This document shows positions 4,070 to 45,673 of a stretch of DNA of 57,214 nucleotides, in pieces. The position numbers and the translations under genes are program-made. A model generated the notes under the pieces. That model was given only the letters and a program-made list of their open reading frames with translations. It did no database searches and was not told where the DNA came from. Position 1 is the stretch's first letter. Each line of letters begins with the position of its first letter. Origin of the DNA: a virus (lineage: Duplodnaviria; Caudoviricetes); the IMG/VR virus record IMGVR_UViG_3300030107_008096, positions 1 to 57,214 of that record; one strand, written 5' to 3'.

Positions 4070-4591
4070 ATGATGATTATATTGCACATATTATCTGTGC
4101 CCCTGGCACTTTTTTATGCGAATTTCATAGAGTGGTTTGCGCACAGATTTGTTCTTCACAGGTTGGGCAGAAATAAAAAAAGCTATTGGGCTTTTCATTG
4201 GCACAGGCATCACAAACTCGCACGGAAACACAAAGGCCTGGACCCTTCATACAGAACACCACTCAAGGGTCATGTTTTAAAAGAAAAGATTATGTTATTT
4301 TTGCTCATTTTGACTCATTCCCCACTATTTACTATGGTGCCATTATTTTATTTGGCGCTTGTATATTGCACATGGAACTATTATAACGTCCACAGAAGAT
4401 CACATTTGAGTATAGAGTGGGCAAAAAAAAATGTTCCATGGCACTACGAGCACCACATGGGAAAGGACCAAGAAAAAAACTGGTGCGTAACCAGAGATTG
4501 GTGCGACAGGCTTTTTGGAACCAGAGTTGAATATTTAAACGAAGGAAAAAATAATGAAACTTACAAAATCAAATTTAAAAAACATGATTAA
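4070..4591 (+). CDS. fatty acid hydroxylase / sterol desaturase family membrane protein
   Basis: Four His boxes (HRFVLH, HWHRHH, HRRSH, HYEHH) and hydrophobic segments. Confidence 0.8.
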   Translation: MMIILHILSVPLALFYANFIEWFAHRFVLHRLGRNKKSYWAFHWHRHHKLARKHKGLDPSYRTPLKGHVLKEKIMLFLLILTHSPLFTMVPLFYLALVYCTWNYYNVHRRSHLSIEWAKKNVPWHYEHHMGKDQEKNWCVTRDWCDRLFGTRVEYLNEGKNNETYKIKFKKHD

Positions 4592-4865
4592 AGAGGCAGT
4601 TGCAGAGGCCATCGACGCAACACCCACGACAGCAGAGCCAGCGCCGCCTGTGGCAAAACAGCGCGCCGATGTCGCCATGGCTTCAAAGAAGATGACAAAA
4701 GCAGCCGGTCTTGAATCGCACATGGAAAAAATTAATAACCGAGTAGAATTAGAACAATTTCTTGGCAACGTGTTAACAAAATTAGGGCCTCAATTGACGG
4801 GCGCTGATAAGTATAGAGCCTTGGTCAACCTTGCCATGGCCGCGAAAAAAGGATTAACAGAATAA
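4554..4865 (+). CDS. MKLTK-tag hypothetical protein
   Basis: Starts MKLTKSNLKNMIKE. Confidence 0.75.
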   Translation: MKLTKSNLKNMIKEAVAEAIDATPTTAEPAPPVAKQRADVAMASKKMTKAAGLESHMEKINNRVELEQFLGNVLTKLGPQLTGADKYRALVNLAMAAKKGLTE

Positions 4866-5236
4866 TGAAACTCACCAAGTTCAAACTAAAACAAATTATT
4901 GCAGAAGAGGTCGCACAAGCCGTAAAAGAGGGCGACGTGACGGAAGCGGGAGCCCCATGGCCTACAGATGCAGATCCGGCCGGCGAGGAACTTCCAGCAG
5001 AATTCCAATATGAATATGTCCTAGATGAACTCGTTAATGCAGCTAGAGATGGCATTATGCCGCTGGCAGTTAAAAAATTAAAGGATGCAGGAGCTTTTAA
5101 AGATGAGGGTACTCCCGAGCGTGTTCTCTACCATGGTTTAACTTATAATGATATTGAGCTTGAGATTGAAGAGGGTTTGTTGGACGCGCTCAAACCTTTG
5201 GCCAAAGTAATTCACGCCTATATGGAAAAAACTTAA
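4865..5236 (+). CDS. MKLTK-tag hypothetical protein
   Basis: Starts MKLTKFKLKQIIAEE; TAATG coupling. Confidence 0.75.
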   Translation: MKLTKFKLKQIIAEEVAQAVKEGDVTEAGAPWPTDADPAGEELPAEFQYEYVLDELVNAARDGIMPLAVKKLKDAGAFKDEGTPERVLYHGLTYNDIELEIEEGLLDALKPLAKVIHAYMEKT

Positions 5237-5261
5237 AAAGACTAAAGGAGTCACTTTAACA

Positions 5262-5366
5262 ATGAAAACTTTTATTCACAGACTTACAAATTTATTTAAC
5301 AACAGTCACTGCTGCTGCTGTTGCGGTTGCTGTGGCTGTACAGCCTGTAAAGGAAGCTGCAAATGA
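5262..5366 (+). CDS. cysteine-rich micropeptide (metallothionein-like)
   Basis: Hand-translated MKTFIHRLTNLFNNSHCCCCCGCCGCTACKGSCK; AAGGAG SD; ATGA overlap with next gene. Confidence 0.65.
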   Translation: MKTFIHRLTNLFNNSHCCCCCGCCGCTACKGSCK

Positions 5367-5785
5367 AGCTAACCAAATCAAAGCTTAAGCAAATCATTAA
5401 AGAGGAGTTAAATTCCCTCTTGGAAGTGTACGATTCGGCGGCTGCGGAGCGTGGAGACTATGACTACGACGCAGGAGCGGGACATAAAGCATCTAGAGAT
5501 GAATGGGGCCTTTTCACTACTAGCGATATGCTTAAGCATGGTAAAAAATCTTGGTTTTCTTCTCATTGGCGCGATCAAATACTGCAAAAAATTAAGGATA
5601 GAGAGCCAGTGCCCCCAGATCATGTGTGGCGCCGCATTAAGCGCGAACTCAATGGGGCCGGTATATACGCGCCCGGACCAGAAGCAGACGCTCTAATAGA
5701 CAGCGTTTTGGACACTATGAAACAAGAAACTGACTTGCCTCACTTGCGAAAAGGCATTCCAGAGTTCTGGACAAGGCGGGACTAA
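5363..5785 (+). CDS. MKLTK-tag hypothetical protein
   Basis: Starts MKLTKSKLKQIIKEE. Confidence 0.75.
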   Translation: MKLTKSKLKQIIKEELNSLLEVYDSAAAERGDYDYDAGAGHKASRDEWGLFTTSDMLKHGKKSWFSSHWRDQILQKIKDREPVPPDHVWRRIKRELNGAGIYAPGPEADALIDSVLDTMKQETDLPHLRKGIPEFWTRRD

Positions 5786-5799
5786 AGGGAATATTTGAA

Positions 5800-6018
5800 A
5801 TGAAGCTAACCAAATCAAAACTTAAACAAATTATTAAAGAAGAGCTTGGTGGGTTTCTTGACGACACGTACTCATCTGAAGACGTTGCATGGGACGCGCA
5901 CAAAGCCGCTATTGAAAATATTCGCAATATGTCAAAACAAATGAGCGATGAGGACTCTTACGCTTTTTTAAACCTTCTTAAAGAGTGGTTTAATAAGAAT
6001 GTTTTAGAAGAACAATGA
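5800..6018 (+). CDS. MKLTK-tag hypothetical protein (frame stays open past TGA to 6171)
   Basis: Starts MKLTKSKLKQIIKEE; in-frame continuation contains NPWAICTASVG. Confidence 0.7.
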   Translation: MKLTKSKLKQIIKEELGGFLDDTYSSEDVAWDAHKAAIENIRNMSKQMSDEDSYAFLNLLKEWFNKNVLEEQ

Positions 6019-6183: not shown

Positions 6184-6462
6184 ATGCACGTAACAATCAA
6201 TAAAATTCTAATTTTTGCTACCTCTTTAATTTTAGTAATAGCTCTTGGCACAGAAGTTGCCCGCGCGGCCAAAAAGCCACCAAAGAATGTAAAGTCTAAA
6301 TTCTACGACTTCAGCGAACAAGTGATTGATGGCAAGATTAACAAACCAACGGTAATATACATGAATCAGAGAGAAAGAGTGAGATTTAAAAGGCTATTAA
6401 GCTTAAAAAAATCATTCATGCCTAAGCTTTTTAACACTCATAAAGAGCGCATATTTAAATGA
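6184..6462 (+). CDS. secreted protein resembling myxobacterial CglF/GltF
   Basis: Signal peptide plus YDFSEQVIDGKINKP...F.RLL.LKKSF pattern, recognised by eye. Confidence 0.55.
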   Translation: MHVTINKILIFATSLILVIALGTEVARAAKKPPKNVKSKFYDFSEQVIDGKINKPTVIYMNQRERVRFKRLLSLKKSFMPKLFNTHKERIFK

Positions 6463-7250
6463 AATGTTTGTTTGAAAATTTTAGAGAGTTCTTGTCCACC
6501 GACAATAAAACGGAGGCCACAGACCCAGAGTCGGTAGACACTTCCAGTTTCAAGGTAAAGGAAAAGCTAAACCCGGCGGTTTGGGACGAACAAGATCAGC
6601 TTCGACCAGAGGTTTCAGAGCTGCTACGCTCGATTGCGCAAGATTTTTTTGAAAGCTTAGGAATCGACTGGGTTAGAATACTTGATATAACATTTACAGG
6701 CTCATTGGCAAACTATAATTGGTCCCAGTATTCAGACGTGGATTTGCACATTATTATTAATTATGATGATGTCGACGAGAACTTACAGTTAGTTGATGAG
6801 CTGCTCAAGGCCAAACGTATCAACTGGAACAAAACGCATAATATAAAAATTCATGATTTTGAGGTGGAAGTATATGTGCAGGACGTAAAAGAACCACACG
6901 CATCAACAGGCGTCTATTCTGTGCTAGGCGACCAGTGGCAGATTAAGCCAAGCCAAACAAACGTTGAGATCGATTGGGATGGCATCAAAACGAAAGCCGC
7001 CTGTCTAATGGACCTAGTTGATGATGCAATTTCATCTTACAAGCAAAAAGACTACGAGCAAGCGATTGAGCAGATTGACAGAGTGAGAGAAAAAATTAGA
7101 AAATTTCGGAAATGCGGCCTGGAAACGGGTGGAGAGTTTTCAACTGAAAACTTGGCATTCAAAGTCTTGCGAAGGAATGGATACCTGGCAAAGTTGAGCA
7201 ATTATAAGATTCTCGCTTATGATAAAATGATGTCTTTATCTCAAGAATAA
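6459..7250 (+). CDS. nucleotidyltransferase (Pol-beta superfamily) with ENWR-like tag
   Basis: GSLANYNWSQYSDVDLH (GS..DxD) and a third acidic residue in EVEVYVQ. Confidence 0.8.
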   Translation: MKCLFENFREFLSTDNKTEATDPESVDTSSFKVKEKLNPAVWDEQDQLRPEVSELLRSIAQDFFESLGIDWVRILDITFTGSLANYNWSQYSDVDLHIIINYDDVDENLQLVDELLKAKRINWNKTHNIKIHDFEVEVYVQDVKEPHASTGVYSVLGDQWQIKPSQTNVEIDWDGIKTKAACLMDLVDDAISSYKQKDYEQAIEQIDRVREKIRKFRKCGLETGGEFSTENLAFKVLRRNGYLAKLSNYKILAYDKMMSLSQE

Positions 7251-9453: not shown

Positions 9454-9942
9454 GTGAAAGAAATATTAAAAAAATTTAAGAATTTACTTATCGAAAGCGA
9501 TTTATTGGGTTATACTAGTGGTGGTATGATAACTGTGTATCACTATAGTAAAAGCCCAGAAAAGGAACTTGTTTTAAATCCAAAGTATTTTATATCTAAT
9601 ACGAGCTACCACAGCCGTAGAGAGAAAGAAACAAGCACGGTTCCGAGAGTTTTCTTTTATACAGACCCGAACAAGACGGAAGCGATCATCGCGCGAGATC
9701 CTAGCAGAAAGCTATTTTCGACCCAAGTGCCGGCTTCAAAGGTCTATAACATCGCAAAAGACCCCGAAGGGTTTATCAAGAAAGTAAGACATCCCGTCTT
9801 TGGCCTCAGAAAAGGTATGGAGTGGAACGACCTACTTAACTCTATAAAAGAAAAATATGATGGTGTTTTTTACAGTATCGGTACGCCAGATGTCATTGCT
9901 TGGTTTAGACCAATTAAAGTTTATAGAACTGAAGAGGGGTAG
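9454..9942 (+). CDS. tagged protein, possible ADP-ribosyltransferase-like fold
   Basis: VYHYS...VFFYTD...YDGV pattern; late motif CTATTTAC at 9442. Confidence 0.5.
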   Translation: MKEILKKFKNLLIESDLLGYTSGGMITVYHYSKSPEKELVLNPKYFISNTSYHSRREKETSTVPRVFFYTDPNKTEAIIARDPSRKLFSTQVPASKVYNIAKDPEGFIKKVRHPVFGLRKGMEWNDLLNSIKEKYDGVFYSIGTPDVIAWFRPIKVYRTEEG

Positions 9943-14430: not shown

Positions 14431-14433
14431 TAA

Positions 14434-14471: not shown

Positions 14472-14503
14472 ACCCATAGAAACAGTCAAGAAGGGATATT
14501 AAA

Positions 14504-15175: not shown

Positions 15176-15326
15176 TTTAGTAAAATTTCGTGGCAGCGTT
15201 GGCGTTGTCACTTGTGTCGACCCCGAAGAGATAGGCGATCCCCAAGAGGTAGAAGTTTCTTGGAGCGAAGGCGATATTGGGAACATGGATTGTATTTTGT
15301 TGGAGGTAATCAGTGCAAGTCGGTGA
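15162..15326 (+). CDS. array cassette 9, KOW/SH3-like microprotein
   Basis: MQVGDLVKFRG..GVVTCV...EVSWSEG...LLEVISASR. Confidence 0.85.
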   Translation: MQVGDLVKFRGSVGVVTCVDPEEIGDPQEVEVSWSEGDIGNMDCILLEVISASR

Positions 15327-15534
15327 TTTTGTAACGCTTAAAAAAGATAGAACCATAGTCGGCTGCGTAGTTAAAATTGCGAAAGAGCCCCGAACCCGTC
15401 AAGCCGGTGGCCGCAGCCAGCGCAAACACCCTCTCCCTGTTTGGGTTGCGTGGGCCGCACTAGATGGCGAAGTCCAACAAGAGTATAGACACACTCTGGA
15501 GGTTGTCAGTGATGCAAGTAGGCGACTTAGTTAG
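15313..15534 (+). CDS. array cassette 10, KOW/SH3-like microprotein
   Basis: MQVGDFVTLK...GCVVKI...WVAW...TLEVVSDASRRLS. Confidence 0.85.
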   Translation: MQVGDFVTLKKDRTIVGCVVKIAKEPRTRQAGGRSQRKHPLPVWVAWAALDGEVQQEYRHTLEVVSDASRRLS

Positions 15535-24601: not shown

Positions 24602-24617
24602 GGACTATTTATAATAT

Positions 24618-25262
24618 ATGCGAAAATTACTTGAAACATGGAAAAAAAACGTTCTTTTAGAACAGGTCGCTTTCCCTTATCAAATCTATTGTGATATGGA
24701 TGGGGTTTTAGTCGATTTTGTCCGCGGCGCGGTAGATAAAATCAATCAAGAGCTGGACCAACTAGCAGAAGAGGGCAAGGAACACAAGCGTCTTGTGGTG
24801 AGCCTAGAGAAGCGTGGCAGGAAATACATCAAGCCAGAAGACATTTCTCAAAGAAGTCCAGAAAGAATTCAAGCTGCAAGAAAGTATATGTATAAACTAT
24901 TAGCGAACAATACCAAGTTTTGGGGGGAATTACCTTGGATGGACGATGGGCAAAAGTTATGGAGTTACGTTGGACAATACAACCCATACATATTAACAAC
25001 GCCCATGGGACCCGGATCTGAAAAGGGAAAAGAGGCCTGGATAAGGAAAAATTTAAGCCCAATGCCGGTAAAAATTCATATGAGCGACAAGAAATATGAA
25101 TATGCAATTAACAAAGACGGGAAGCCGAATATATTGATCGATGATTTTCCAGAAAATACAGTACCGTGGACTAACCATGGTGGGATTGCTATATTGCACA
25201 AGTCCACAGACGAGACAATACAAAAATTACAAGAATTGCAAAAAAACGGTAGAATAACGTAG
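24618..25262 (+). CDS. HAD-family 5'(3')-nucleotidase-like protein with ENWR-like tag
   Basis: YCDMDGVL, ILTTP, K..W, ILIDD. Confidence 0.85.
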   Translation: MRKLLETWKKNVLLEQVAFPYQIYCDMDGVLVDFVRGAVDKINQELDQLAEEGKEHKRLVVSLEKRGRKYIKPEDISQRSPERIQAARKYMYKLLANNTKFWGELPWMDDGQKLWSYVGQYNPYILTTPMGPGSEKGKEAWIRKNLSPMPVKIHMSDKKYEYAINKDGKPNILIDDFPENTVPWTNHGGIAILHKSTDETIQKLQELQKNGRIT

Positions 25263-25275
25263 GAGAATTGTGTTA

Positions 25276-25440
25276 ATGTGTATAATTTGCGTAGACTATC
25301 AAAAAGAAAAACTCACTCTTAATGAAGCGTGGCGAAATTTAAAAGAAATGCGAGAAGATATGGACCCGGCTCATGTAGAGGAGGTCGTTAACATGCTTTG
25401 GGAAGATGATTGCTATAATACTCATGGAAATGGGGATTAA
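25276..25440 (+). CDS. small hypothetical protein
   Basis: AGGAG SD; hand-translated MCIICVDYQKEKLTLNEAWRNLKEM... Confidence 0.65.
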   Translation: MCIICVDYQKEKLTLNEAWRNLKEMREDMDPAHVEEVVNMLWEDDCYNTHGNGD

Positions 25441-25455
25441 AAGGAGAAATATTAA

Positions 25456-25581
25456 ATGAAATTAACCAAATCAAAACTTAAACAGATTATTAAAGAAGAG
25501 ATGGAGACTATTTTTTCCGAAGGTCTAACAGATGAAGAAGAAAAAGAGCTTAAGAGTCTTGAAAAGAAAAAACACGACTGA
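25456..25581 (+). CDS. MKLTK-tag micro-ORF, in frame with the next ORF across TGA
   Basis: AAGGAG SD; MKLTKSKLKQIIKEEMETIFSEGL...KKKHD. Confidence 0.7.
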   Translation: MKLTKSKLKQIIKEEMETIFSEGLTDEEEKELKSLEKKKHD

Positions 25582-25833
25582 ATGAAAGAAGGAAAGCTGA
25601 GTTCAGCTTTAATGGAAAGATACGGAATTAAAAAGGAAGACGCAATAGGTAAAGTGTTGTGGCATTCGTTGAATGAGAGCGCAGAGATTGGTGTTTATGA
25701 TATGAAATTTGGCAACACTATTATTCGCAATTTAACAGAAGCGGATATCATTGGAGAGGCATCGGACCACAAACGCGATGATGAACATGGCACCCAAGAT
25801 GATGATGATCCAAAAAGAGGAAAAAAGAAATAA
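25582..25833 (+). CDS. hypothetical protein
   Basis: 83 aa; ATG immediately after an in-frame TGA, no clear SD. Confidence 0.6.
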   Translation: MKEGKLSSALMERYGIKKEDAIGKVLWHSLNESAEIGVYDMKFGNTIIRNLTEADIIGEASDHKRDDEHGTQDDDDPKRGKKK

Positions 25834-26307
25834 ATGAAATTACTATTTGAACATTGGCGCAACTATTTTAAAGAAAAGGGGCTAAACGAGGAAAAAAGAA
25901 AAGATGACCCTTGTTGGGAAGGTTATGAACAGGTAGGAATGAAAGAAAAGGATGGTAAAGAGGTACCGAATTGTGTGCCCCTAAAAAAAGAATCTCTAAA
26001 AGAACTTATTGAAGAAGAAATTGAAAACATGTATTATGAAATGCTAGCAGAAGGAGAAGTCCTCGAAGAGGCAGAATATCAAGGGCGTAAAGTTACTCTA
26101 AATAAACCTACGAAGGGTGATGTAAAGAAATCTAAAGTATATGTTAAAAATGATAAGGGTAATGTTGTAAAAGTTAATTTTGGCGATCCAAACATGAAAA
26201 TTAGAAAATCAAACCCAAAAGCAAGAAAGTCATTTAGAGCAAGACATAATTGCAAAAATCCAGGGCCAAAATGGAAAGCAAGGTATTGGTCCTGCAAGGC
26301 CTGGTAA
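25834..26307 (+). CDS. ENWR-tag protein with modules typical of T4-like phage proteins
   Basis: CWEGYEQVGMK..VPNCVP and RKSFRARHNC..KARYWSCKAW. Confidence 0.8.
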   Translation: MKLLFEHWRNYFKEKGLNEEKRKDDPCWEGYEQVGMKEKDGKEVPNCVPLKKESLKELIEEEIENMYYEMLAEGEVLEEAEYQGRKVTLNKPTKGDVKKSKVYVKNDKGNVVKVNFGDPNMKIRKSNPKARKSFRARHNCKNPGPKWKARYWSCKAW

Positions 26308-26308
26308 T

Positions 26309-26695
26309 ATGAAATTTCTATTTGAAAATTGGCGCCAATGGATGAGTGATGAAGAGAAAGAATTTCTTGACATTGGCATGCCAACAATTAGGAAAAATGA
26401 CATTATTAGAAAACCGAATATAAACCCGCACCAAAAAAATACTCTATTAGATTTTTTTGTCAAACTAAACGAAACAGCAGACGAGGCATCGACACAGAAC
26501 ATATTAAAAACAATTTATGCTCATAGTGGCTTTTCTGATGATTTTGATTATTCCACAAAAGAAGATGCTTTAGAGGACTATTATACTCCTTATCGCTATG
26601 AAGGGGCCTCTCTTAAAGATTGGCACCAAAAAATTAAAAAAGCTGTGCATGCACGCACGCGGCACACAAAACCAATGGATTGGGGAAATAAATAA
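26309..26695 (+). CDS. ENWR-tag hypothetical protein
   Basis: MKFLFENWRQW. Confidence 0.75.
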   Translation: MKFLFENWRQWMSDEEKEFLDIGMPTIRKNDIIRKPNINPHQKNTLLDFFVKLNETADEASTQNILKTIYAHSGFSDDFDYSTKEDALEDYYTPYRYEGASLKDWHQKIKKAVHARTRHTKPMDWGNK

Positions 26696-27111
26696 TGAAA
26701 TTCCTACTTGAAAATTGGCGACAGTATTTAGAAGACGACAGCGAAAATATTGATATTGAGGTTGAAGGCGGAAGTCTTTCGGGGGTTGTTCATAATGATA
26801 TACAGCGAGTCTTAAATTGGGCTGAAAAAGAAAGAACAAGTCGCGGAACAATAGAAACAATCGGCACATTAAAAACCCCAATTGCAATATTAAAAAATAT
26901 GCATGTTGAAGAAGAATCAAAAAATCAAGGCATTGGCACTGATTTGTTGCAACAATTTCTAGATAAAACATATAATATGCCTATTTTATTAATTTCCGAT
27001 GAGGGTGAAGAAAATGCTTTTGGTTTGACCAATTGGTATGAAAAATATGGATTTGAACATATTGGAGAGTCTGGTGGTTATCCCGTTTTATTAAAGAGGG
27101 TTGAAAAATGA
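26695..27111 (+). CDS. ENWR-tag GNAT acetyltransferase
   Basis: V..ESKNQGIGT.LL and WYEKYGF. Confidence 0.8.
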   Translation: MKFLLENWRQYLEDDSENIDIEVEGGSLSGVVHNDIQRVLNWAEKERTSRGTIETIGTLKTPIAILKNMHVEEESKNQGIGTDLLQQFLDKTYNMPILLISDEGEENAFGLTNWYEKYGFEHIGESGGYPVLLKRVEK

Positions 27112-27470
27112 AACTACTACTTGAAAATTGGCGAGAGTATTTGAAAGAGGATACAACTGCGATATCCAGTGATGAAATAGAGTCCCTAGTTCGTTCTATT
27201 CATATGGAAGAGGACGATTTTATCGAAGGGGATCTAATAGACAACATAAGACAATACCCTTACTATATTCTTAAAGATGTTGAACTAAATAAAATAGAGA
27301 CCGCATGGACCGACCTAGGGAAAGTTGATGACTATGCCGAAATGAGCACTGAAGCAGATCCTGTTGTTTTGGATCACACGTTACACGCAATAGACGGATC
27401 CCATAGAATAGAGGCGGCAAAAGAACGAGGTGAGGAAAAAATAAAAGCTTATGTAGGAGTTGCCCAATGA
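27108..27470 (+). CDS. ENWR-tag ParB/Sulfiredoxin-like domain protein
   Basis: PVVLD...IDGSHRIEAA...IKAYV. Confidence 0.75.
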   Translation: MKLLLENWREYLKEDTTAISSDEIESLVRSIHMEEDDFIEGDLIDNIRQYPYYILKDVELNKIETAWTDLGKVDDYAEMSTEADPVVLDHTLHAIDGSHRIEAAKERGEEKIKAYVGVAQ

Positions 27471-28099
27471 AAATACTATTTGAAAATTGGCGAAATTTCT
27501 TATTAACAGAGAAATTAATGCTTAAGCCTGGCCCCAGCGGCTGGGACCTTTACGGAGAATTGGTTGCACAAGCGTATGAAAATGCCCCGGAGTTTGATCC
27601 CGCTGCAGTTTCTTCTTTCGAAGCTCTAGAACCATTTATTAATAAAATGTTTAACCAAATTCAATCTAGGGTTAATGTGCAATTTGTCGACGAAGACCCG
27701 TACCCTTCTGAAAGAGAGATGTGTCAGGATGCAATGCAGAATGGGGTTTTAAAAATTTGGAAAGGCGGCACAGAACATCCCGTTTTTAATCCCGAATTAA
27801 ACTTAAAATTAAGAGCCGTGCATGATTATATGACCCATTGCCAGCGAAGCACAGATTTTGGCCTGCAAGGGGAAATTGCTTCGTATAACGGCCACATGAA
27901 AACTGTTCCGCCCTCTGCTGCGGGAGCTTTGTTTACAGAAGTTGTAGGGCAGGCTAGCTACTTTATTAAAAGAGGAAATTTCCCAAAACAAAAAATAGCA
28001 ATATTGCCCGGTTTTGATTTCTTTAACGTTGGAGAGGTTGATCCTGAAATAACTGGATATAGGTTAGATCGTGAAAAAAAGGAACTAATTAAAATATGA
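27467..28099 (+). CDS. ENWR-tag hypothetical protein
   Basis: MKILFENWRNFLLTE; RAVHDYMTH..F...GE possible metal site. Confidence 0.75.
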   Translation: MKILFENWRNFLLTEKLMLKPGPSGWDLYGELVAQAYENAPEFDPAAVSSFEALEPFINKMFNQIQSRVNVQFVDEDPYPSEREMCQDAMQNGVLKIWKGGTEHPVFNPELNLKLRAVHDYMTHCQRSTDFGLQGEIASYNGHMKTVPPSAAGALFTEVVGQASYFIKRGNFPKQKIAILPGFDFFNVGEVDPEITGYRLDREKKELIKI

Positions 28100-28305
28100 A
28101 ATTCAATATGGATATAAAAACGCTTGTTTTCATCATTTCAGTGGCCTGCGCCCTAGGGGGTTTTTATTATACCACGCAAGCAAGGTTAGATGATGCCGAA
28201 AAAGAGATAAAATTTTTATGGTCCTCTGTTGGTGAACTAGAAAAAGAAAACAAACGTATAAGAAAGCAAATTAATATTTTACGCAAAACACAAAGCAATA
28301 AATGA
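28096..28305 (+). CDS. membrane-anchored coiled-coil protein
   Basis: N-terminal TM helix followed by heptad pattern. Confidence 0.7.
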   Translation: MKFNMDIKTLVFIISVACALGGFYYTTQARLDDAEKEIKFLWSSVGELEKENKRIRKQINILRKTQSNK

Positions 28306-29570
28306 AATTACTAATTGAAAATTGGCGCAAGCACCTGAATGAGATTACTTCCGTACCACCGGAACATATGCAGGCTTTCAAAGAGACTATAGCTAGTTCC
28401 AAGTTCTGGACATTGCCACACACTGAAGACGAAATAGATATGGGCCCAGCAGATGAGCTTACCACGCCCGCTGTTGAATCTCTAGCTAACTCTTTAAATG
28501 ACACTGCCGATGCTCTGGGGACGGAAATATATTTTCTTTTTACAACGGTTAACGAAGAAGAATACGCATTGGCCCCGGATAGTCCGTACCCCGGTTACCC
28601 AGACAATTGGTTGATGCAGGGTGCATATCAGGGCCCGCAGAAGGGCAAGCACGTTGTTTGGTTTCAATTTCGCCCACTGTCTGAAGATTTCGAGATGGAT
28701 AAATTTAATCCCGAAGCACTGGTTAAGGTGTTATCTCAGACTTTAAATCACGAGCTTGTGCACTATTATCAGCTTAAAAAACAAGCTGCAAGCAAAGGGA
28801 TCAGTGACGAAGAAGCTTGGGCAGAGCTTGAGAAAGATCCAAAACAATTGCCGCAAGACAGCGAAGAACAGACGTACCTTGGCTTACACAATGAGATAGA
28901 CGCATATGCCCACGAAGCAGCAGAACAACTGCTCGATCAACACTCACCAGAAGAGGCACTGGATATAATCCGAAAGCTGTCGGCAGATAACTTGGAAAAA
29001 TATCCAGAGATATCTTCTGTTGTTAAAAGATATGTGGAAGTGTTTAAGGACGATCCAAAAACATTAGCTAAATTCCGAAAGAAGCTGGTTCAACAGGTTG
29101 AAAATCAATCAGGTATACAGGAAATATTTAACAATTGGCGAAAGTTTTTGCGAGAAACTGAACGCCCCGGCCCGGGCAGGACAAAATCACGCTACGAACG
29201 AATGGCAGAGCCAATTGCGTTTGACGGCTTTGCAAAAGCTACATATGACGCCACAGGAGAGTCTGGTGAATTTTTAGAAGAAGACATAGAAGGCAAAGTT
29301 AAGATTTATCGTGCTTTGCCAGCCACCACCACAGAGGTCCGAACAAATGATTATGTTACAATGTCAAGAAGATTTGCCGGCGAGCACGCTGTGACCTCTG
29401 CGCTATATAATGAAGAGGATTTTTATGTTGTGTATGCGTTTGTTAACGGAGAAGACGTTAAGGAAGCCGACAACCCTGGTGAATATAGGTATACTGGAGA
29501 GCCTTTTGAAGCAAAACCGACTCAGATTGCAAATCATCAGACGGGAGACTTGAGGTCAGCTAGAAGATGA
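28302..29570 (+). CDS. ENWR-tag zincin metallopeptidase fused to a second tagged, ART-like domain
   Basis: HELVH...EIDAYA; internal IFNNWRKFLRE; KIYRA...YVTMSRRFA.EHA. Confidence 0.7.
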   Translation: MKLLIENWRKHLNEITSVPPEHMQAFKETIASSKFWTLPHTEDEIDMGPADELTTPAVESLANSLNDTADALGTEIYFLFTTVNEEEYALAPDSPYPGYPDNWLMQGAYQGPQKGKHVVWFQFRPLSEDFEMDKFNPEALVKVLSQTLNHELVHYYQLKKQAASKGISDEEAWAELEKDPKQLPQDSEEQTYLGLHNEIDAYAHEAAEQLLDQHSPEEALDIIRKLSADNLEKYPEISSVVKRYVEVFKDDPKTLAKFRKKLVQQVENQSGIQEIFNNWRKFLRETERPGPGRTKSRYERMAEPIAFDGFAKATYDATGESGEFLEEDIEGKVKIYRALPATTTEVRTNDYVTMSRRFAGEHAVTSALYNEEDFYVVYAFVNGEDVKEADNPGEYRYTGEPFEAKPTQIANHQTGDLRSARR

Positions 29571-30397
29571 AATTATTGATGAAAAATTGGCAAAGCTATT
29601 TAGACAAATTAGTAGTTTTAGATGAAAAACTTGACGATCAGTTTTATATAACTGAAGTTTTAGGAATACAAGTCCCCCTTAACGAAGCTTATCCATATTC
29701 TATAGAATTAAAAGAAAAAATTATTAAAGAACATATGCTTTTTGAAGGATTTTGGGGCGATTTAGGAGATAAGATAAAACAAGGCACCACAGCGGCATGG
29801 GACAAAGCCAAGCAACTTCCCAAACAAGTGGCAGATATGTTTATCATGCTTTATAAGGTATTTTCTGGAGGAAAAGCTAAGCTAATGACGTTCGACAAAG
29901 CGGTTAAACGAAACGGTATTTATGTTATAACAAAAAAATTAAACGAGTTCTTGGATTTAATCATAACAAAATTTTCCGATCAAATGGAATCAGTTGCAAA
30001 TTGGGCAAAAAAAGCGAAAGGTCTGCTGGGTAAACAGTATACAATACAAGAAAGAGCTTTAGATTGGAAATCAGCCTTAAAAGATACAGCGCTTTTAGTA
30101 GGGTTAAAATATATCTGGAGCAAAATAGGGCCAATAATAGAAGACGTGCTAAAGGCTGTAGACCCTAACGCACAAATGGCTCTTTTAAAAAAATTTGTTA
30201 AAGAAAATATGATGAGTGTTTTCAATAATATTTTAAATAATTTAACATCCGGCATCCGTGCAGCGCTGGGAGACATAACTATTTTTTGGGATTGGCTCAA
30301 AGAGGTTGGAGGGGGCATAAAACTAGTTTTTGATGCTCTTTCGCCAGTATTAGCCTTCTTTAAAGGAAGAGGCGGGCTGAATGAAACTACTATTTGA
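29567..30397 (+). CDS. ENWR-like-tag helical protein
   Basis: MKLLMKNWQSYL; amphipathic helices. Confidence 0.75.
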   Translation: MKLLMKNWQSYLDKLVVLDEKLDDQFYITEVLGIQVPLNEAYPYSIELKEKIIKEHMLFEGFWGDLGDKIKQGTTAAWDKAKQLPKQVADMFIMLYKVFSGGKAKLMTFDKAVKRNGIYVITKKLNEFLDLIITKFSDQMESVANWAKKAKGLLGKQYTIQERALDWKSALKDTALLVGLKYIWSKIGPIIEDVLKAVDPNAQMALLKKFVKENMMSVFNNILNNLTSGIRAALGDITIFWDWLKEVGGGIKLVFDALSPVLAFFKGRGGLNETTI

Positions 30398-31358
30398 AAA
30401 TTGGCGAAAATATTTAGAAGAAGATACAATAGATGAACTATCATTACCCTTTTCCTCGCAGGCTAGAATGGAGAAAGAGTTGAAAAAATTAGAAAACGAA
30501 ATGGTTGACGAAAAACATGCCTCCGCGTGGGAAAAAATCAAGCAAGAGATGAAGGAGACGAAGACCGCCTGGGTTTTAGCGAAAAAATATTTTACCAAAG
30601 GTCTAACTAAGGAGGAAAAATCATTTCTGTGGGATCAAATTAAAGATATTGCAAGGGGTACAACCCTGGCGGCACTGTTCGCCGCGCCAGGAGGGTCTGT
30701 TGCTTTGCCATTTGTCTTAAAGTTTACGAAGGGGACACTATTACCCTCCGCTTTTAAGGAAAATTTACGCACAAATAAAACTGCAGGGACAATTGTTGCA
30801 ATATTTGGCCCATCTGGCTGCGGAAAATCTAGACAAAAGGCTGTTTTTAAAAATAATGGTTGGCAAGAGCTTGTTTCTTTGGTGACAAGACCTCCAAGAG
30901 GTGAAAAAGACGTTGAATATGAATTCACAACAGAAGAAGAATGGTTAAAAGAATATGAACAAGGGAATTTAATCAATACAAATCAATATGGAGGGAATTA
31001 TTACGGTACGAAGCTGGATGATTTCCTTGCAGCAAGAAATGCAGTGATGATTACAGATGAAACAAACGTTGATGGGAGCCGAGGGGAGGAAGATTTAAGA
31101 AATATAGCCGAAAAATACGGAAAAACACTAGTATTGGCCTTTTGCGCCCCTCCAGATGAGAAAAAACTCGAAAAAAGACACCAAAACCGGCTAAAAAGCG
31201 GAGAATATTCTAGTGAGGAAGAGTATAAAAAAAGACTAAAAAAGGCAAAAGAAGAGGCTTCGAGCACGAAATATAGGATTAAAACCCTTAATATTGGCGT
31301 ACATGAGCTTCATGATGATGAAGATACGGAAGAATTGGCACGGAGTTTGCGCAAATGA
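30381..31358 (+). CDS. ENWR-tag LETM1-like segment fused to a guanylate-kinase-like domain
   Basis: LFAAPGGSVALP; GPSGCGKS, TRPPR, NYYGT. Confidence 0.75.
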   Translation: MKLLFENWRKYLEEDTIDELSLPFSSQARMEKELKKLENEMVDEKHASAWEKIKQEMKETKTAWVLAKKYFTKGLTKEEKSFLWDQIKDIARGTTLAALFAAPGGSVALPFVLKFTKGTLLPSAFKENLRTNKTAGTIVAIFGPSGCGKSRQKAVFKNNGWQELVSLVTRPPRGEKDVEYEFTTEEEWLKEYEQGNLINTNQYGGNYYGTKLDDFLAARNAVMITDETNVDGSRGEEDLRNIAEKYGKTLVLAFCAPPDEKKLEKRHQNRLKSGEYSSEEEYKKRLKKAKEEASSTKYRIKTLNIGVHELHDDEDTEELARSLRK

Positions 31359-31936
31359 AGCTTTTATTTGAGAATTGGAAGCGGTTTTTGATGGAACACA
31401 GCGAAGAAGACAGTGATTTAGTGTCTAAAGTTATAATTTCTAACGAAAACAATGAAGTTTTACTGCTTAAAAGGGCACCAAACGCCCCAAAGTACCCAAA
31501 TTATTGGGATTTACCAGGCGGGCATGCTAAAAAAGGAGAAGATTTAATTAAAGCCGGCGTAAGAGAAACAAAAGAAGAGACAGGTTTATCGATAAAAGGC
31601 TTAAAACAGGTAAAAAAGTACAAAAAAATCAATTTTTTTAAAACAAAAGAGTATTCTGGCTCTATTTTAGACACGCTTCCGGAGCACAGCGAGTATAAGT
31701 GGGTAAATATTGACGATTTGAATCAACATAGGCTGCCCCCGGGCGGAAATGAGGCCGTAAAAGAGGTTTTAGGCGAACTGACAGAGGATTTTCAAGACGA
31801 TGTTAAGAAAAAACACCTAAAATTAAAGAAAAAGACCATTGGAATGGGCGGAAATAGAGAAAAAGTGCCTAAATCTATGAATTTTATGTCAGCAAAGCGC
31901 GCCAAATCCTCTCCACCAGGGTTTGGAGGCACTTAA
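31355..31936 (+). CDS. ENWR-tag NUDIX hydrolase
   Basis: WDLPGGHAKKGE....GVRETKEETGL Nudix box. Confidence 0.9.
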   Translation: MKLLFENWKRFLMEHSEEDSDLVSKVIISNENNEVLLLKRAPNAPKYPNYWDLPGGHAKKGEDLIKAGVRETKEETGLSIKGLKQVKKYKKINFFKTKEYSGSILDTLPEHSEYKWVNIDDLNQHRLPPGGNEAVKEVLGELTEDFQDDVKKKHLKLKKKTIGMGGNREKVPKSMNFMSAKRAKSSPPGFGGT

Positions 31937-31990
31937 AATACTTTCTTTCTATTTTTTAAGCAACTAATTATATTAAAAGAGGAGAAAACA

Positions 31991-32206
31991 GTGAAAGATC
32001 AACAATTTAGTTCTATTTTTAATGATATTGATTTAAAAATTGTGGATCTTCTTATTGAAAGGGAAAAAGAAGATAAAGAAAGGCAAAAACAGCAACAATC
32101 GTTGTATATTCAGCTGTCGGCGCCTCAAAATCCGGATTTTGAACCCTCATTCGAAGAAAATAATGAAAAAAACGACAATAATGGCACAATTGTCATTGAT
32201 TTATAG
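31991..32206 (+). CDS. hypothetical protein
   Basis: GAGGAG SD, GTG start, late motif upstream. Confidence 0.6.
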   Translation: MKDQQFSSIFNDIDLKIVDLLIEREKEDKERQKQQQSLYIQLSAPQNPDFEPSFEENNEKNDNNGTIVIDL

Positions 32207-32211
32207 TAAAA

Positions 32212-32571
32212 ATGAAGAAATATTACAATAAATGGCGTATATTTTTGAATGAAGACGAAAAATCGTTTTCATCACCAAGCCCACATCATTATACAATAGA
32301 TTTAAAGATTCATTATGACGAAGAAGCTCGTTTATATGAAGATATCTTTAACCAAGTGCGCGCAATTCCCGGAGTCACAATTATTTCTGTGACTGAAGCT
32401 TCGCAGACAACCGGTACCGACCAAAAAACCGTTCGATTAGATTTAAAATACATGCCAGATAGTAAAGGTGTTCCACTAGAGCAATACGGGTTTATGTTAA
32501 GACGTAAAATCAAAAGTATTCACGGAATCGACGGTGTAAAATTTATCTCATCTAAAAAAATTGACGTTTAA
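32212..32571 (+). CDS. ENWR-like-tag hypothetical protein
   Basis: MKKYYNKWRIFLNE; VRAIPGVT and IKSIHGID beta-alpha-beta repeats. Confidence 0.7.
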   Translation: MKKYYNKWRIFLNEDEKSFSSPSPHHYTIDLKIHYDEEARLYEDIFNQVRAIPGVTIISVTEASQTTGTDQKTVRLDLKYMPDSKGVPLEQYGFMLRRKIKSIHGIDGVKFISSKKIDV

Positions 32572-36623: not shown

Positions 36624-37292
36624 ATGAGCAAAGGCCCTTCAAAAAACCAAATAAAAGAAATTATCTTAGAAGAGTTGATAGCGATACTGCTCGAAAGAAA
36701 AATGATAACAGAGCAGCAATTACTTGAAGAAGATATGTCTAACCTTATTTCTAGATTATTGCCAGGAAGTTCGGAGAGATCTTGGAGAAAGTGGCTCAAG
36801 AAGAACCCAGAAGACGAAGAAGAAATTGAAGCAGCCTTACAAACTCAGGGACCAGCTGGCGCTGCCAAAGTCGCTCAAGAATTAAGCGATGAAGATATTA
36901 TAAGTGTAGAGCCGGCTAAAAAGCCAGGGCCCGCACCAGAATCACCACCTCGACTACCAGCCAGTGCACTAGTACAGAGAAAAGATGTTATTATATTGCC
37001 GAAATCTACGGCTAGTCTTAAAAGAATAGTAGCCAGGATGGTGAACTGGGTTCTAGATGAGACCAACTGGGAGCACCAAGAATGGGATGCCCCTTCTCAG
37101 ACTAGTCCTGTTACTGGTACAATTATTGTTAAAATGATTAATTATCTCCGGCACCTCTCTGGAAACACCGCTTACGCTAAAGAATATTTGCAAGAAAATA
37201 AAACAAACTTAATTTACATTAAAGAATCTAGATTAAAAGAAATATTAACTAAAGAAATACAAGAGAAAGCCCAAGAATGGCATGCCCGATAA
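36624..37292 (+). CDS. hypothetical protein with tag-like helices
   Basis: SKNQIKEIILEEL at N-terminus and ESRLKEILTKEIQE at C-terminus. Confidence 0.7.
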   Translation: MSKGPSKNQIKEIILEELIAILLERKMITEQQLLEEDMSNLISRLLPGSSERSWRKWLKKNPEDEEEIEAALQTQGPAGAAKVAQELSDEDIISVEPAKKPGPAPESPPRLPASALVQRKDVIILPKSTASLKRIVARMVNWVLDETNWEHQEWDAPSQTSPVTGTIIVKMINYLRHLSGNTAYAKEYLQENKTNLIYIKESRLKEILTKEIQEKAQEWHAR

Positions 37293-43111: not shown

Positions 43112-43133
43112 CTTAAAGTTACTAAGGATACAT

Positions 43134-45665: not shown

Positions 45666-45673
45666 GGGAAAAA

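What the first reader, a model, noticed from the sequence alone, without database searches (positions are those of the whole stretch)
24618..32571. Shared N-terminal ENWR tag on unrelated enzymes: candidate capsid-targeting and injection toolkit
Seen: MK(L/F/I)L(F/L/I/M)ENWR(K/Q/E/N)(Y/F/H)LxE, or a close variant, begins the genes at 24618, 25834, 26309, 26695, 27108, 27467, 28302, 29567, 30381, 31355 and 32212, with further variants at 1099, 6459 and 9454. The bodies are unrelated: HAD nucleotidase, GNAT, ParB/Srx, zincin, guanylate-kinase-like, NUDIX, Pol-beta NTase and ART-like. The tag DNA (TTGAAAATTGGCG) is conserved and many of the genes are translationally coupled. Known: T4 internal proteins use a ~10-aa N-terminal capsid-targeting sequence cleaved after Glu by the prohead protease, and several of these domain types recur in phage polyvalent proteins. 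Inference: a modular address tag loads a panel of nucleotide- and protein-modifying effectors into the head for delivery with the DNA, like a polyvalent protein split into separate genes.
Basis: partly seen in the sequence, partly recalled or inferred. Interest (0 to 1): 0.85.

Follow-up and report, generated by a model that had tools for sequence, protein, structure and literature searches.

The report
Shared head-loading leader on phage enzymes
A dozen neighbouring genes on this fragment of an uncultured marine T4-like phage start with the same 14-residue peptide, which most likely works like phage T4's "load into the head, then cut off" tag, so the enzymes this phage may carry into its host can be read from sequence, although no virion data exist.

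Summary
The leader MK[LFI]L[FLIM]ENWRx[YFH][LI]xE begins 8 genes strictly and 3 more loosely between 24618 and 32571. Variants at 1099 and 6459 also pass a scoring test; 9454 does not. An internal copy lies at 29112.

The bodies are unrelated: HAD nucleotidase, GNAT, ParB/Srx, HExxH zincin-like, guanylate kinase, NUDIX and NTase. An ART-like domain was not found.

The window is syntenic with a complete 203-kb T4-like genome. The gp21-type prohead protease is present in 5 of 5 complete tag-bearing relatives.

In IMG/VR the leader heads 155 complete ORFs in 82 body families. Conservation stops sharply after Glu14. Its residues W8, [YF]11, [LI]12 and E14 have the spacing and chemistry of the four functional residues of T4's capsid targeting sequence and of gp21's L/I-X-E site.

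The same motif heads genes beside gp21 in 6 of 9 loci. It also sits at fusion joints of multi-module proteins.

Best reading, at about 0.68: a T4-type capsid-targeting, protease-removed leader. Packaging and injection are unproven.

It is a new variant of a known kind. This scan had already noted the leader on another genome (e1-5800576).

The parts
24604..24613 (+). ACTATTTATA motif 13 nt before the first gene of the array; candidate clade-specific (late?) promoter element
   Evidence: In the window 6 of 9 + strand copies of ACTATTTA lie within 60 nt upstream of a gene start; such DNA is 9% of the window. In relative G001 the motif precedes the baseplate wedge, tail tube and tail fibre-like genes and the gene before the major capsid gene.
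24618..25262 (+). Variant leader (MRKLLETWKKNVLLE) + HAD-type 5'(3')-deoxyribonucleotidase
   Evidence: PHROG 2643 at 1.8e-21; Pfam NT5C at 0.004. Matrix score 6.0, above the 99.9th percentile. 49% identical to the tagged G001 gene at 21531. In L018 the same body follows an internal tag at residue 483 of a 719-aa protein.
25834..26307 (+). Leader MKLLFEHWRNYFKE + basic protein of unknown function
   Evidence: The body hits only PHROGs of unknown function. 75% DNA identity over 258 nt to hypothetical genes of Pelagibacter phages.
26309..26695 (+). Leader MKFLFENWRQWMSDE + unknown body
   Evidence: score 16.3; no family hit.
26695..27111 (+). Leader MKFLLENWRQYLED + GNAT acetyltransferase
   Evidence: Pfam Acetyltransf_7 at 2.3e-6, over its cut-off; score 28.7.
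27108..27470 (+). Leader MKLLLENWREYLKE + ParB/Srx-fold domain (invariant DGxHR)
   Evidence: The profile of 50 homologs hits ParB/Srx-superfamily chains (SbnI, ParB nuclease, Noc, ParB, Spo0J) in 11 of 14 PDB matches. AF2 model pLDDT 86.7. The Foldseek top hits are all ParB-N, sulfiredoxin or Noc, at E down to 2e-4. Most of the 150 listed homologs align only from residue ~18 on, i.e. without the leader, and some sit inside proteins of up to 2335 aa.
27467..28099 (+). Leader MKILFENWRNFLLTE + confidently folded body of unknown fold (invariant H119, D120 and H124, i.e. H-D-x-x-x-H)
   Evidence: AF2 pLDDT is about 95 from residue 21. Residues 1-15 are below 50 and form a detached helix 2-12. No clear structural neighbour: Foldseek E >= 0.38, VIA Z <= 3.5. 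Actinophage homologs align from residue 33 on; the one in Rhodococcus phage E3 is annotated 'structural protein'. Marine homologs keep the leader.
28096..28305 (+). Untagged 69-aa membrane/coiled-coil protein inside the array
   Evidence: weak Rz-like spanin PHROG hit at 7.7e-4. Shows that not every gene of the array is tagged.
28302..29570 (+). Leader MKLLIENWRKHLNE + HExxH zincin-like module + internal leader + two further modules (a fusion)
   Evidence: All 120 listed homologs cover only the first 50-70% of the protein, and 88 of them are 260-299 aa. HExxH is present in 120 of 120.
29112..29156 (+). Internal copy of the leader (GIQEIFNNWRKFLRE) at the joint between modules of gene 28302
   Evidence: Highest-scoring internal 14-mer of the window: 20.1, next best -1.1. 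12 homologs carry a tag at the same joint (a 13th has it near the N-terminus), followed by different C-terminal modules. The C-terminal modules exist as separate genes that start with the leader in 16 of 21 sequences read.
29567..30397 (+). Degenerate leader MKLLMKNWQSYLDK + unknown 276-aa body
   Evidence: Score 12.9; there is no Glu at position 14; no family hit.
30381..31358 (+). Leader MKLLFENWRKYLEE + LETM1-related helical region + guanylate-kinase-like P-loop kinase
   Evidence: Pfam Guanylate_kin at 1.3e-10; TIGR03263 at 2e-18, below its curated cut-off; score 39.3.
31355..31936 (+). Leader MKLLFENWKRFLME + NUDIX hydrolase
   Evidence: Pfam NUDIX at 2.3e-17; score 25.3.
32212..32571 (+). 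Variant leader MKKYYNKWRIFLNE + unknown body
   Evidence: Keeps W8, F11, L12 and E14; score -3.5, above the 99.9th percentile of -9.0.
1099..3870 (+). Outlying variant (MSAFVEKWREFQEQ) on a 923-aa protein of unknown function
   Evidence: Score -1.6. Homologous to G001 13563-14798, inside G001's tag cluster.
6459..7250 (+). Outlying variant (MKCLFENFREFLSTD) + Pol-beta-type nucleotidyltransferase
   Evidence: PHROG 36119 at 4.6e-47; weak Pfam NTase hits; score 13.0. The G001 ortholog begins MSFDKWREFLAE. Homologs in Maribacter and Synechococcus phages align only from residue ~29.
9454..9942 (+). Claimed variant that is NOT supported as a member
   Evidence: Score -14.7, below the 99.9th percentile of internal 14-mers.
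4554..6018 (+). Four genes (4554, 4865, 5363, 5800) with a second shared leader, MKLTKSKLKQIIKEEL, on unrelated small acidic bodies
   Evidence: In the fetched loci, 45 ORFs seeded only on MK[IL]TK keep L8 (43), I12 (44) and E14 (44); conservation drops after position 16; they fall into 37 body families. A protein with this leader lies directly after gp21 in G005.
36624..37292 (+). Variant of the second leader (MSKGPSKNQIKEIILEEL), preceded by ACTATTTA

Best explanation
The 14-residue leader MKLL[LF]ENWRx[YF][LI]xE is the capsid targeting sequence of an uncultured marine clade of T4-like phages.

Proposed mechanism:
1. The leader is an amphipathic helix that docks the attached protein onto the assembling prohead core. 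Inferred.
2. The gp21-type prohead protease then cuts after the [LI]-x-Glu that ends the leader. Inferred from the motif and from the presence of the protease in relatives.
3. The enzyme is left free inside the head, and some or all of these proteins leave with the DNA. Inferred by analogy with T4 IPI and Alt.

What is shown here:
- The leader is real and sits at the N-terminus.
- It is under selection at the protein level and ends sharply at Glu14.
- It is attached to at least 82 unrelated bodies.
- It recurs on genes next to gp21 and at the joints of fused modules.
- The window belongs to a gp21/gp23-encoding T4-like lineage.

The tag DNA probably also serves as a homology patch at which cargo modules are exchanged, fused and split.
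For: (1) Lineage. 22 window proteins match G001 in conserved order at 28-65% identity. G001 is a complete 203-kb genome with direct terminal repeats that has Peptidase_S77 (gp21) and Gp23. gp21 is found in 5 of 5 complete and 4 of 10 partial tag-bearing contigs.

(2) Spread. It occurs in only 6 stretches of 185,579 prokaryote genomes, all of them MAG contigs.

(3) Modularity. There are 155 complete unique tagged ORFs in 82 body families by BLAST. Bodies include NUDIX, HAD, kinase, 2H phosphoesterase, HNH, PGDYG, DUF192 and transglutaminase-like domains. Homologs outside the clade lack the leader.

(4) Boundary. With one sequence per family (n=82), positions 10-14 were not used for selection yet carry 1.6-3.0 bits. 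Position 15 drops to 0.37 bits. Position 11 is aromatic in 76, position 12 aliphatic in 72, and position 14 is Glu in 67.

(5) Fit to T4.
- gp21 cuts after L/I-X-E.
- T4 targeting sequences are 10-19 residues long.
- In the IPIII sequence, residues 4 and 7 target and residues 8 and 10 direct processing (passages of PMC9026906).
- The T4 sequence is MKTYQEFIAE (passage of PMC8442874).
- Aligned at the final Glu, Y4/F7/I8/E10 correspond to W8/[YF]11/[LI]12/E14.

(6) Head module. In 6 of 9 gp21 loci a gene within two genes of gp21 carries the motif near its N-terminus, for example MKLLLEHWNRYLQE..TWRTFLNE and IINERWDRYLKE. A seventh locus has the second leader there. About 10 of 260 G001 ORFs carry such a motif.

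(7) Joints. 171 of 191 motif hits are N-terminal. The rare internal ones sit at fusion joints. The joint tag of gene 28302 is conserved in 12 homologs at 49-92% identity with different downstream modules. Those modules exist as separate leader-headed genes.

(8) Structure. In the AF2 model of 27467 the leader (residues 1-15) is a detached low-confidence helix on a body with pLDDT about 95.

(9) Expression hint. The ACTATTTA motif precedes the array and, in G001, structural genes.
Against: - No virion proteomics, N-terminal sequencing or cultured host exists for this clade. Packaging, cleavage and injection are all unobserved.
- The window has no protease, scaffold or capsid gene; the link is by synteny with relatives.
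- The similarity to the T4 sequence is a four-position pattern, not homology. The first half of the leader (LL[LF]EN) has no T4 counterpart.
- Several cargoes (nucleotidase, guanylate kinase, NUDIX) are ordinary cytoplasmic metabolic enzymes that need not be packaged.
- Two members (29567 and, in part, 6459) lack the Glu at position 14.
- Leu4 and Arg9 codons are more uniform than protein selection requires. So part of the conservation is shared DNA ancestry or a nucleic-acid-level constraint.
- The T4 late-promoter word TATAAATA is absent from the coding strand.
- The ACTATTTA motif also precedes phoH and a radical-SAM gene, so it is not shown to be late-specific.
- Five cultured or assembled phages checked have no copy of the tag DNA pattern, so no experimental system carries it.
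Confidence: 0.68

Rival explanations
1. The leader is a docking peptide for some other common partner or place, not the capsid. Candidates are a phage or host hub protein, a chaperone (the phage encodes DnaK and Hsp20), the membrane, or a replication compartment. On this view the LxE ending is incidental.
For: An amphipathic helix on many enzymes is what any shared-partner system would look like. The window encodes a full Hsp70 and an Hsp20. Many cargoes are nucleotide-metabolism enzymes that could act together in the cytoplasm.
Against: This does not explain the sharp end of conservation at [LI]-x-E, the match to the four functional positions of the T4 sequence, the recurrence on genes flanking gp21, or the restriction to genomes with gp21. 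No other compartment or shell gene was seen in the window.
Confidence: 0.12
2. The conserved element acts mainly at the DNA or RNA level. It would be a start-region cassette that gives efficient, coupled translation initiation and/or a homology patch for recombination. The encoded peptide would be a by-product.
For: Codon choice in the tag is more uniform than the protein requires: Leu4 is CTA in 7 of 8 window tags and 132 of 202 clade tags, and Arg9 is almost never AGA. Genes are tightly coupled. Fusions and fissions occur exactly at tags.
Against: Other positions vary synonymously (Leu3, Leu12, Lys, Phe, Tyr). Substitutions are conservative at the protein level (Y/F/H, L/I/V). Internal tags far from any start codon keep the peptide across homologs of 49-92% identity. 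Position 14 Glu is conserved with both codons, GAA 128 and GAG 36. A recombination role can coexist with targeting and is part of my best reading.
Confidence: 0.08
3. The leader is a functionless remnant of repeated gene duplication and N-terminal exon-like shuffling within one hyperplastic locus.
For: Tagged genes are clustered, and the tag DNA shows shared ancestry.
Against: Persistence on 82 unrelated body families, across genomes whose orthologous proteins are only 28-65% identical, implies purifying selection. So does position-specific conservation of chemistry and a sharp boundary.
Confidence: 0.04

Closest known systems
Capsid targeting sequence (CTS) of phage T4 internal proteins IPI, IPII, IPIII and the Alt propeptide, removed by prohead protease gp21 (Mullaney and Black 1996, known to me only through passages of PMC9026906, PMC5694885 and PMC3012670)
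   Same: - A short N-terminal leader: 10-19 residues in T4, 14 here.
- Starts MK and ends in L/I-X-E.
- Hydrophobic or aromatic residues at P7 and P4.
- Sits on otherwise unrelated proteins encoded in a variable locus of a T4-like phage that has gp21.
- T-even internal proteins are described as 'highly diverse ... with only a conserved CTS'.
   Different: - Different sequence, with four extra residues and an invariant ENWR core.
- Far larger repertoire: at least 12 genes in this window and 82 body families in relatives, against 3-4 in T4.
- Cargo is mostly enzymes rather than small basic DNA-associated proteins.
- The tag also occurs at internal fusion joints.
- A second leader family (MKLTKSKLKQIIKEEL) occurs in the same genomes.
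- No experimental evidence at all.
Long N-terminal propeptides of ejection and inner-body proteins of giant phages (phiKZ, 201phi2-1, SPN3US), cut by gp21-like proteases at S/A-X-E (passages of PMC9026906 and PMC5694885)
   Same: Many head-internal proteins, some of them enzymes, are targeted by N-terminal propeptides and released by cleavage after Glu. Paralogs share conserved N-termini.
   Different: Those propeptides are about 80-130 residues long and family-specific, and the cleavage motif has a small residue at P3. Here there is one short universal leader with L/I at P3.
Polyvalent proteins of phages and conjugative elements (Iyer et al. 2017, PMC5512222; abstract and passages read)
   Same: The domain repertoire overlaps: zincin-like peptidase, ParB/Srx, Pol-beta NTase, 2H phosphoesterase and nucleotide-metabolism domains. 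These proteins are predicted to be delivered with the DNA and to be processed into units.
   Different: Polyvalent proteins are single polypeptides of 2-15 domains, processed by their own zincin domain, and have no common address peptide. Here most effectors are separate genes, each with its own leader. Only a few are fused, and those carry the leader at the joints.

Membership tests
T4-type capsid targeting sequence (CTS) | Short (10-19 residue) peptide at the extreme N-terminus | tested here: met
   14 residues. The tag Met has no in-frame Met upstream in 137 of 155 ORFs. 171 of 191 motif hits are N-terminal.
T4-type capsid targeting sequence (CTS) | Ends in the gp21 cleavage motif L/I-X-E | tested here: met
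   Position 12 is L/I/V/M in 72 of 82 families and position 14 is Glu in 67 of 82. Neither position was used for selection, and conservation collapses at position 15. The motif is taken from a passage of PMC9026906.
T4-type capsid targeting sequence (CTS) | Targeting residues: hydrophobic/aromatic at the positions equivalent to T4 IPIII residues 4 and 7 | tested here: met
   Aligned on the terminal Glu, T4 Y4 and F7 fall on W8 (invariant, but part of the selecting pattern) and on position 11 (aromatic in 76 of 82). This is a pattern match only.
T4-type capsid targeting sequence (CTS) | Genome encodes a gp21-type (Peptidase_S77) prohead protease and a T4-type head module | tested here: met
   Met in relatives: 5 of 5 complete and 4 of 10 partial tag-bearing contigs, with Gp23 in G001. 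The window itself is a 57-kb fragment without head genes and is linked by synteny.
T4-type capsid targeting sequence (CTS) | Same leader on unrelated cargo bodies | tested here: met
   82 body families among 155 ORFs, with distinct Pfam families.
T4-type capsid targeting sequence (CTS) | Sequence homology to the T4 CTS | tested here: inconclusive
   Only MK and four spaced positions are shared. 10-14 residues are too few for a homology test.
T4-type capsid targeting sequence (CTS) | Tagged proteins are incorporated into proheads, cleaved, and found mature in virions | not testable with these tools
   No cultured member. The tag pattern is absent from the 5 named or assembled phage records searched.
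T4-type capsid targeting sequence (CTS) | Expression together with head genes (late) | tested here: inconclusive
   ACTATTTA precedes the array and, in G001, structural genes, but it also precedes phoH and a radical-SAM gene. TATAAATA is absent from the coding strand.
Polyvalent proteins (Iyer et al. 2017) | 2-15 effector domains in one polypeptide | tested here: not met
   Most tagged genes carry one recognisable domain. Only 28302 and some homologs are multi-module.
Polyvalent proteins (Iyer et al. 2017) | Characteristic domain set (zincin-like MPTase, ParB/Srx, NTase, 2H, ART) | tested here: met
   Present here or in relatives: zincin-like HExxH, ParB/Srx, NTase and 2H. ART was not found. 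The domain list comes from passages of PMC5512222.
Encapsulin or microcompartment cargo-targeting peptides | A shell (encapsulin or BMC) gene in the same genome | tested here: not met
   No such Pfam family among the 83 window proteins scanned. Only the window was scanned for this, and it is a fragment.

The most novel reading that the evidence does not exclude
Two orthogonal leaders form a sequence-readable address code. They are ENWR-type leaders on enzymes and MKLTKSKLKQIIKEE-type leaders on small acidic proteins. Both are about 14-16 residues long with [LI]12-x-E14.

Together they would define the whole packaged and injected proteome (over 100 protein families) of an abundant uncultured marine T4-like clade.

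The same peptide would serve three roles:
- the cut site of multi-cargo polyproteins;
- through its conserved DNA, the recombination joint at which cargo modules are swapped, fused and split;
- possibly a sorter of cargo into different layers of the prohead core or different times of ejection.
Probability: 0.3. Interest if true: 0.8.

Novelty: new variant of a known kind. Interest (0 to 1): 0.62.

Why it matters
If the leader is a capsid address, the proteins that a large group of uncultured ocean phages carry into their hosts can be listed from sequence alone. These include nucleotidases, NUDIX hydrolases, kinases, acetyltransferases, ParB-like nucleases and zincin peptidases.

That gives a catalogue of candidate first-minute takeover and anti-defence effectors. 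It extends the T4 internal-protein idea from three small proteins to a large enzyme toolkit. It also offers a short natural tag for loading foreign proteins into non-coli T4-like capsids.

The joints and codon pattern further suggest how such toolkits evolve: by cassette exchange at the tag.

Tried and rejected
- Complex prediction of the leader (first 40 residues of a G001 cargo) with G001's gp22-like scaffold and the small conserved core protein gave no verdict: score 0.00, controls not run. It counts neither way.
- The T4 late-promoter word TATAAATA has 0 copies on the coding strand and 4 on the other strand, as expected by chance.
- The fold of the 27467 body was not identified. Foldseek found nothing at E <= 0.001. 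VIA-align gave Z <= 3.5, with scattered zincin/YbeY/ArdC rows that are not above noise.
- PHROG and Pfam scans of the genes flanking gp21 gave no names, so calling them 'core proteins' rests on position only.
- The ART-like body was not found in Pfam, PHROGs or NCBIfam, including at E up to 5 for the unassigned bodies.
- BLASTN of the array against 50,697 phage records found only short matches covering 3% or less of the array.
- The tag DNA pattern was absent from Flavobacterium phage immuto, Synechococcus phage S-SSM4, Pelagibacter phage HTVC008M, Caulobacter phage Cr30 and a 636-kb uncultured phage.
- Literature. Full-text searches for 'capsid targeting sequence' (21 papers), for it together with 'metagenom' (1 paper, a reference-list hit only), for 'internal proteins' + 'prohead protease' + 'cyanophage' (2 papers), and for the peptide strings LLENWR, LFENWR, LENWRK and FENWRK (13 papers, none on phage by title or abstract) found no description of this leader. 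A five-term search found nothing. The first 'ENWR' search only matched English words.
- Rejected: a signal peptide or lipoprotein reading, because the leader has no hydrophobic stretch (read directly from the sequence).

Full report
**1. The observation**

Between 24618 and 32571, eleven + strand genes begin with a common peptide.
- Eight carry the strict form MK[LFI]L[FLI]E[NH]W[RK]x[YFHW][LFM]x[EDT]: 25834, 26309, 26695, 27108, 27467, 28302, 30381 and 31355.
- Three carry looser forms: 24618, 29567 and 32212.

I built a position matrix from 144 tagged ORFs of other genomes and scored positions 3-14 only. Thirteen window N-termini lie above the 99.9th percentile of 13,886 internal 14-mers: the eleven above plus 1099 and 6459. 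Gene 9454 does not pass.

The only internal site that scores like a tag is QEIFNNWRKFLRE at residue ~272 of gene 28302 (window 29112).

The DNA word TTGAAAATTGGCG is exact in seven of the starts. With up to two mismatches there are 15 matches against 3.5 expected.

Synonymous variation at Leu3, Leu12, Lys, Phe and Tyr shows selection on the peptide. Leu4 is CTA in 7 of 8 strict tags, against 14% genome-wide. Arg9 avoids AGA and AGG. So the tag DNA also shares ancestry.

Ten of the 14 junctions in the array overlap or abut.

**2. The bodies**

| Gene | Body | Evidence |
|---|---|---|
| 31355 | NUDIX | Pfam |
| 30381 | guanylate kinase-like | Pfam |
| 26695 | GNAT | Pfam |
| 6459 | NTase | Pfam, PHROG |
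| 24618 | HAD 5'-nucleotidase | PHROG 1.8e-21 |
| 27108 | ParB/Srx | see below |
| 28302 | zincin-like | see below |
| 27467 | unknown fold | see below |

- 27108: a profile of 50 homologs hits ParB/Srx-superfamily chains (SbnI, ParB nuclease, Noc, ParB, Spo0J) in 11 of 14 PDB matches. The AF2 model (pLDDT 86.7) has only ParB-N, sulfiredoxin and Noc as top Foldseek neighbours.
- 28302: HExxH is present in 120 of 120 homologs, with a conserved EIDAxAxE downstream.
- 27467: folds confidently but has no clear structural neighbour. Its actinophage homologs start at residue 33. One of them, in Rhodococcus phage E3, is annotated as a structural protein.
- No ART-like domain was found.

**3. What the window is**

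The window is the whole record held, a 57-kb virus contig. All but a few ORFs are on one strand, and there are no structural genes.

It encodes Hsp20, a CobS-like AAA protein, a VWA protein, a 2OG oxygenase, PhoH, DnaK, UvdE, a GH25 lysozyme, a tmRNA and two tRNAs.

Twenty-two of its proteins match G001 in conserved order at 28-65% identity. G001 is a complete 203-kb IMG/VR genome with terminal repeats that encodes the gp21-type prohead protease and a Gp23 capsid protein.

The protein of 27467 is recorded on a contig of 195,613 bases. So the window is a fragment of a roughly 190-200-kb T4-like phage.

The closest cultured proteases are only 38-53% identical. They come from Flavobacterium phage immuto, Caulobacter phage Cr30 and cyanophages.

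**4. The leader in relatives**

It occurs in only six stretches of 185,579 prokaryote genomes, all on MAG contigs.

In the fetched loci, 155 complete unique ORFs start with the leader, and their bodies fall into 82 BLAST families. A Pfam scan of 101 representatives left 82 without a match at E <= 0.001. The rest showed NUDIX, HAD, 5'-nucleotidase, protein kinase, 2H phosphoesterase, HNH, PGDYG, DUF192, DUF6356, DUF7178 and transglutaminase-like domains.

With one sequence per family, the positions not used for selection remain informative:
- position 11 is aromatic in 76 of 82;
- position 12 is aliphatic in 72 of 82;
- position 14 is Glu in 67 of 82;
- information falls from 2.4 bits at position 14 to 0.37 at position 15.

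G001's tag cluster (12-22 kb) is syntenic with the window's array but holds mostly different cargo. Only the HAD, the NUDIX and the 1099-type body are shared there. The NTase of 6459 lies at 190 kb in G001 with a shorter leader.

**5. Comparison with T4**

From passages of PMC9026906:
- gp21 cuts after L/I-X-E;
- internal proteins have 10-19-residue N-terminal propeptides that target them to the core;
- in the 10-residue IPIII sequence, residues 4 and 7 matter for targeting and residues 8 and 10 for processing.

The T4 sequence is MKTYQEFIAE (PMC8442874 passage). Aligned at the last Glu, Y4/F7/I8/E10 fall on W8/[YF]11/[LI]12/E14 of the present leader. Both begin with MK.

PMC3012670 describes T-even internal proteins as highly diverse with only a conserved targeting sequence. 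The concept is therefore known. The sequence, the scale and the enzymatic cargo here are not described in any paper that my searches reached.

**6. Independent support from the head module**

gp21 was found in 5 of 5 complete and 4 of 10 partial tag-bearing contigs.

In 6 of these 9 loci, a gene within two genes of gp21 carries the motif near its N-terminus:
- G001: MKLLLEHWNRYLQE upstream and ..ATWRTFLNE downstream;
- G003: ..DSWKNYLVE;
- G009: MKIILERWDSYL and IINERWDRYLKE;
- G010: LLVENFRNFMKE;
- G012: MKTLIENWNKFVVNE;
- G015: INENWQKFIKE.

These genes occupy the position of T4's prohead-core genes 67, 68 and 22. That gene order is recalled, not tested, and no profile named them.

About 10 of 260 G001 ORFs carry such a motif. 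My rough binomial estimate for 6 of 9 loci by chance is of order 1e-4 to 1e-3. It ignores the clustering of tagged genes.

G005 has, at that place, a protein with the second leader (MKITKLRLRRIIKEEIE).

**7. Tags at joints**

Of 191 unique motif hits, 171 are N-terminal and eight are candidate internal sites.

For gene 28302:
- All 120 listed homologs cover only the first 50-70% of the protein, and 88 of them are 260-299 aa.
- Twelve homologs carry a tag at the same joint as the window protein, and a thirteenth has one near its N-terminus. At least three different modules follow these joints.
- Some stand-alone forms end in a truncated tag remnant.
- The window's C-terminal modules occur elsewhere as separate genes that begin with the leader in 16 of 21 sequences read. 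An example is MKLLLENWREYLNE directly followed by GKKVKIF....

In L018 the HAD body of 24618 follows an internal tag at residue 483 of a 719-aa protein.

A peptide needed only at a start codon would not be kept inside fusions. A targeting-and-cleavage module would.

**8. Structure**

In the AF2 model of 27467, residues 1-15 are a low-confidence detached helix and the body is at pLDDT about 95. In 27108 the first ten residues average pLDDT 53.

**9. Expression hint**

ACTATTTA is the most enriched 8-mer in G001 upstream regions. There it precedes the baseplate wedge, tail tube and tail-fibre-like genes and the gene before the capsid gene.

In the window, 6 of 9 copies lie within 60 nt upstream of starts, including 13 nt before 24618. 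It also precedes phoH and a radical-SAM gene, so late specificity is not shown.

**10. A second leader**

Four window genes (4554-6018), and 36624 as a variant, begin MKLTKSKLKQIIKEEL. Seeded only on MK[IL]TK, 45 ORFs in the loci keep L8, I12 and E14 and fall into 37 body families of small acidic proteins. This leader too has [LI]12-x-E14.

**11. Verdict**

The capsid-targeting reading is the best-supported explanation, at about 0.68, but it rests wholly on sequence logic. Rivals are a different shared partner (0.12), a mainly nucleic-acid-level cassette (0.08) and a functionless remnant (0.04).

It is a new variant of a known kind. This scan had already recorded the ENWR leader on another genome with the same reading (e1-5800576). 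New here are the head-module occurrences, the conserved joint tags with stand-alone counterparts, the codon evidence, the second leader and the candidate promoter motif.

Noticed in passing
window 13389-15339: Ten copies of a 40-nt direct repeat (TTGGAGGTAATCAGTGCAAGTCGGTGATTTAGT...) spaced 139-187 nt apart, with one gap of 619 nt. Each copy holds a ribosome-binding site and a start reading M-Q-V-G-D-L-V. This is a tandem array of about 50-60-aa paralogs. More 'GDLV' small genes lie at 10848, 21473, 23559, 24162 and 35414. A similar small domain follows the joint tag in homologs of gene 28302.
   Followed up: partly
window 42801-43114, 50383-50457, 50975-51049: A complete one-piece tmRNA (Rfam 108.9 bits; tag peptide ANDNVEFDYAIAA), plus tRNA-Met and tRNA-Arg(TCT), on a phage contig.
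   Followed up: partly
window 45650-47545 and 496-948: A full-length Hsp70/DnaK (Pfam E 1e-249) and an Hsp20 encoded by the phage.
   Followed up: no
window 24604, 9441, 36592, 41202, 48578, 52266; G001 many sites: The motif ACTATTTA(T) lies 12-56 nt upstream of gene starts. In G001 it precedes several structural genes. It may be this clade's late promoter. It contains the reverse complement of the T4 late-promoter word.
   Followed up: partly
window 32644-34731: A 695-aa secreted or lipoprotein-like protein with four MopE-type Cys-rich metal-binding repeats and a VWA domain, directly after the tag array.
   Followed up: no
window 53902-54597: A 231-aa protein with a C-terminal zincin motif region. 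It gives weak Pfam hits to the ATLF and M90 peptidase families (E 2.5e-6 and 1e-3).
   Followed up: no
window 11202-11768: A DpnI-like (Dam-replacing family) endonuclease domain at E 2.7e-29. It is a methyl-directed restriction-type nuclease carried by the phage.
   Followed up: no
L149 533-1081 (G001 122477-123025): The tagged gene next to gp21 starts with the ENWR-type leader and ends with a sequence like the second leader (..SDIREIIKEEYKLYQEQ). One head-module protein thus carries both motifs.
   Followed up: no
L023 and L025 (IMG/VR loci): Two ORFs carry a leader-like motif at their extreme C-terminus (..CLFENWRGFLKED* and ..RLFDNWRNYLKEDKNETPT*). They may be read-through into the next gene's tag or C-terminal propeptides.
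   Followed up: no
L176 (MAG contig of 261,739 bases labelled Candidatus Harrisonbacteria): One of only six prokaryote-genome hits to the tag DNA lies on a 262-kb MAG contig. It is possibly a mis-binned large phage.
   Followed up: no
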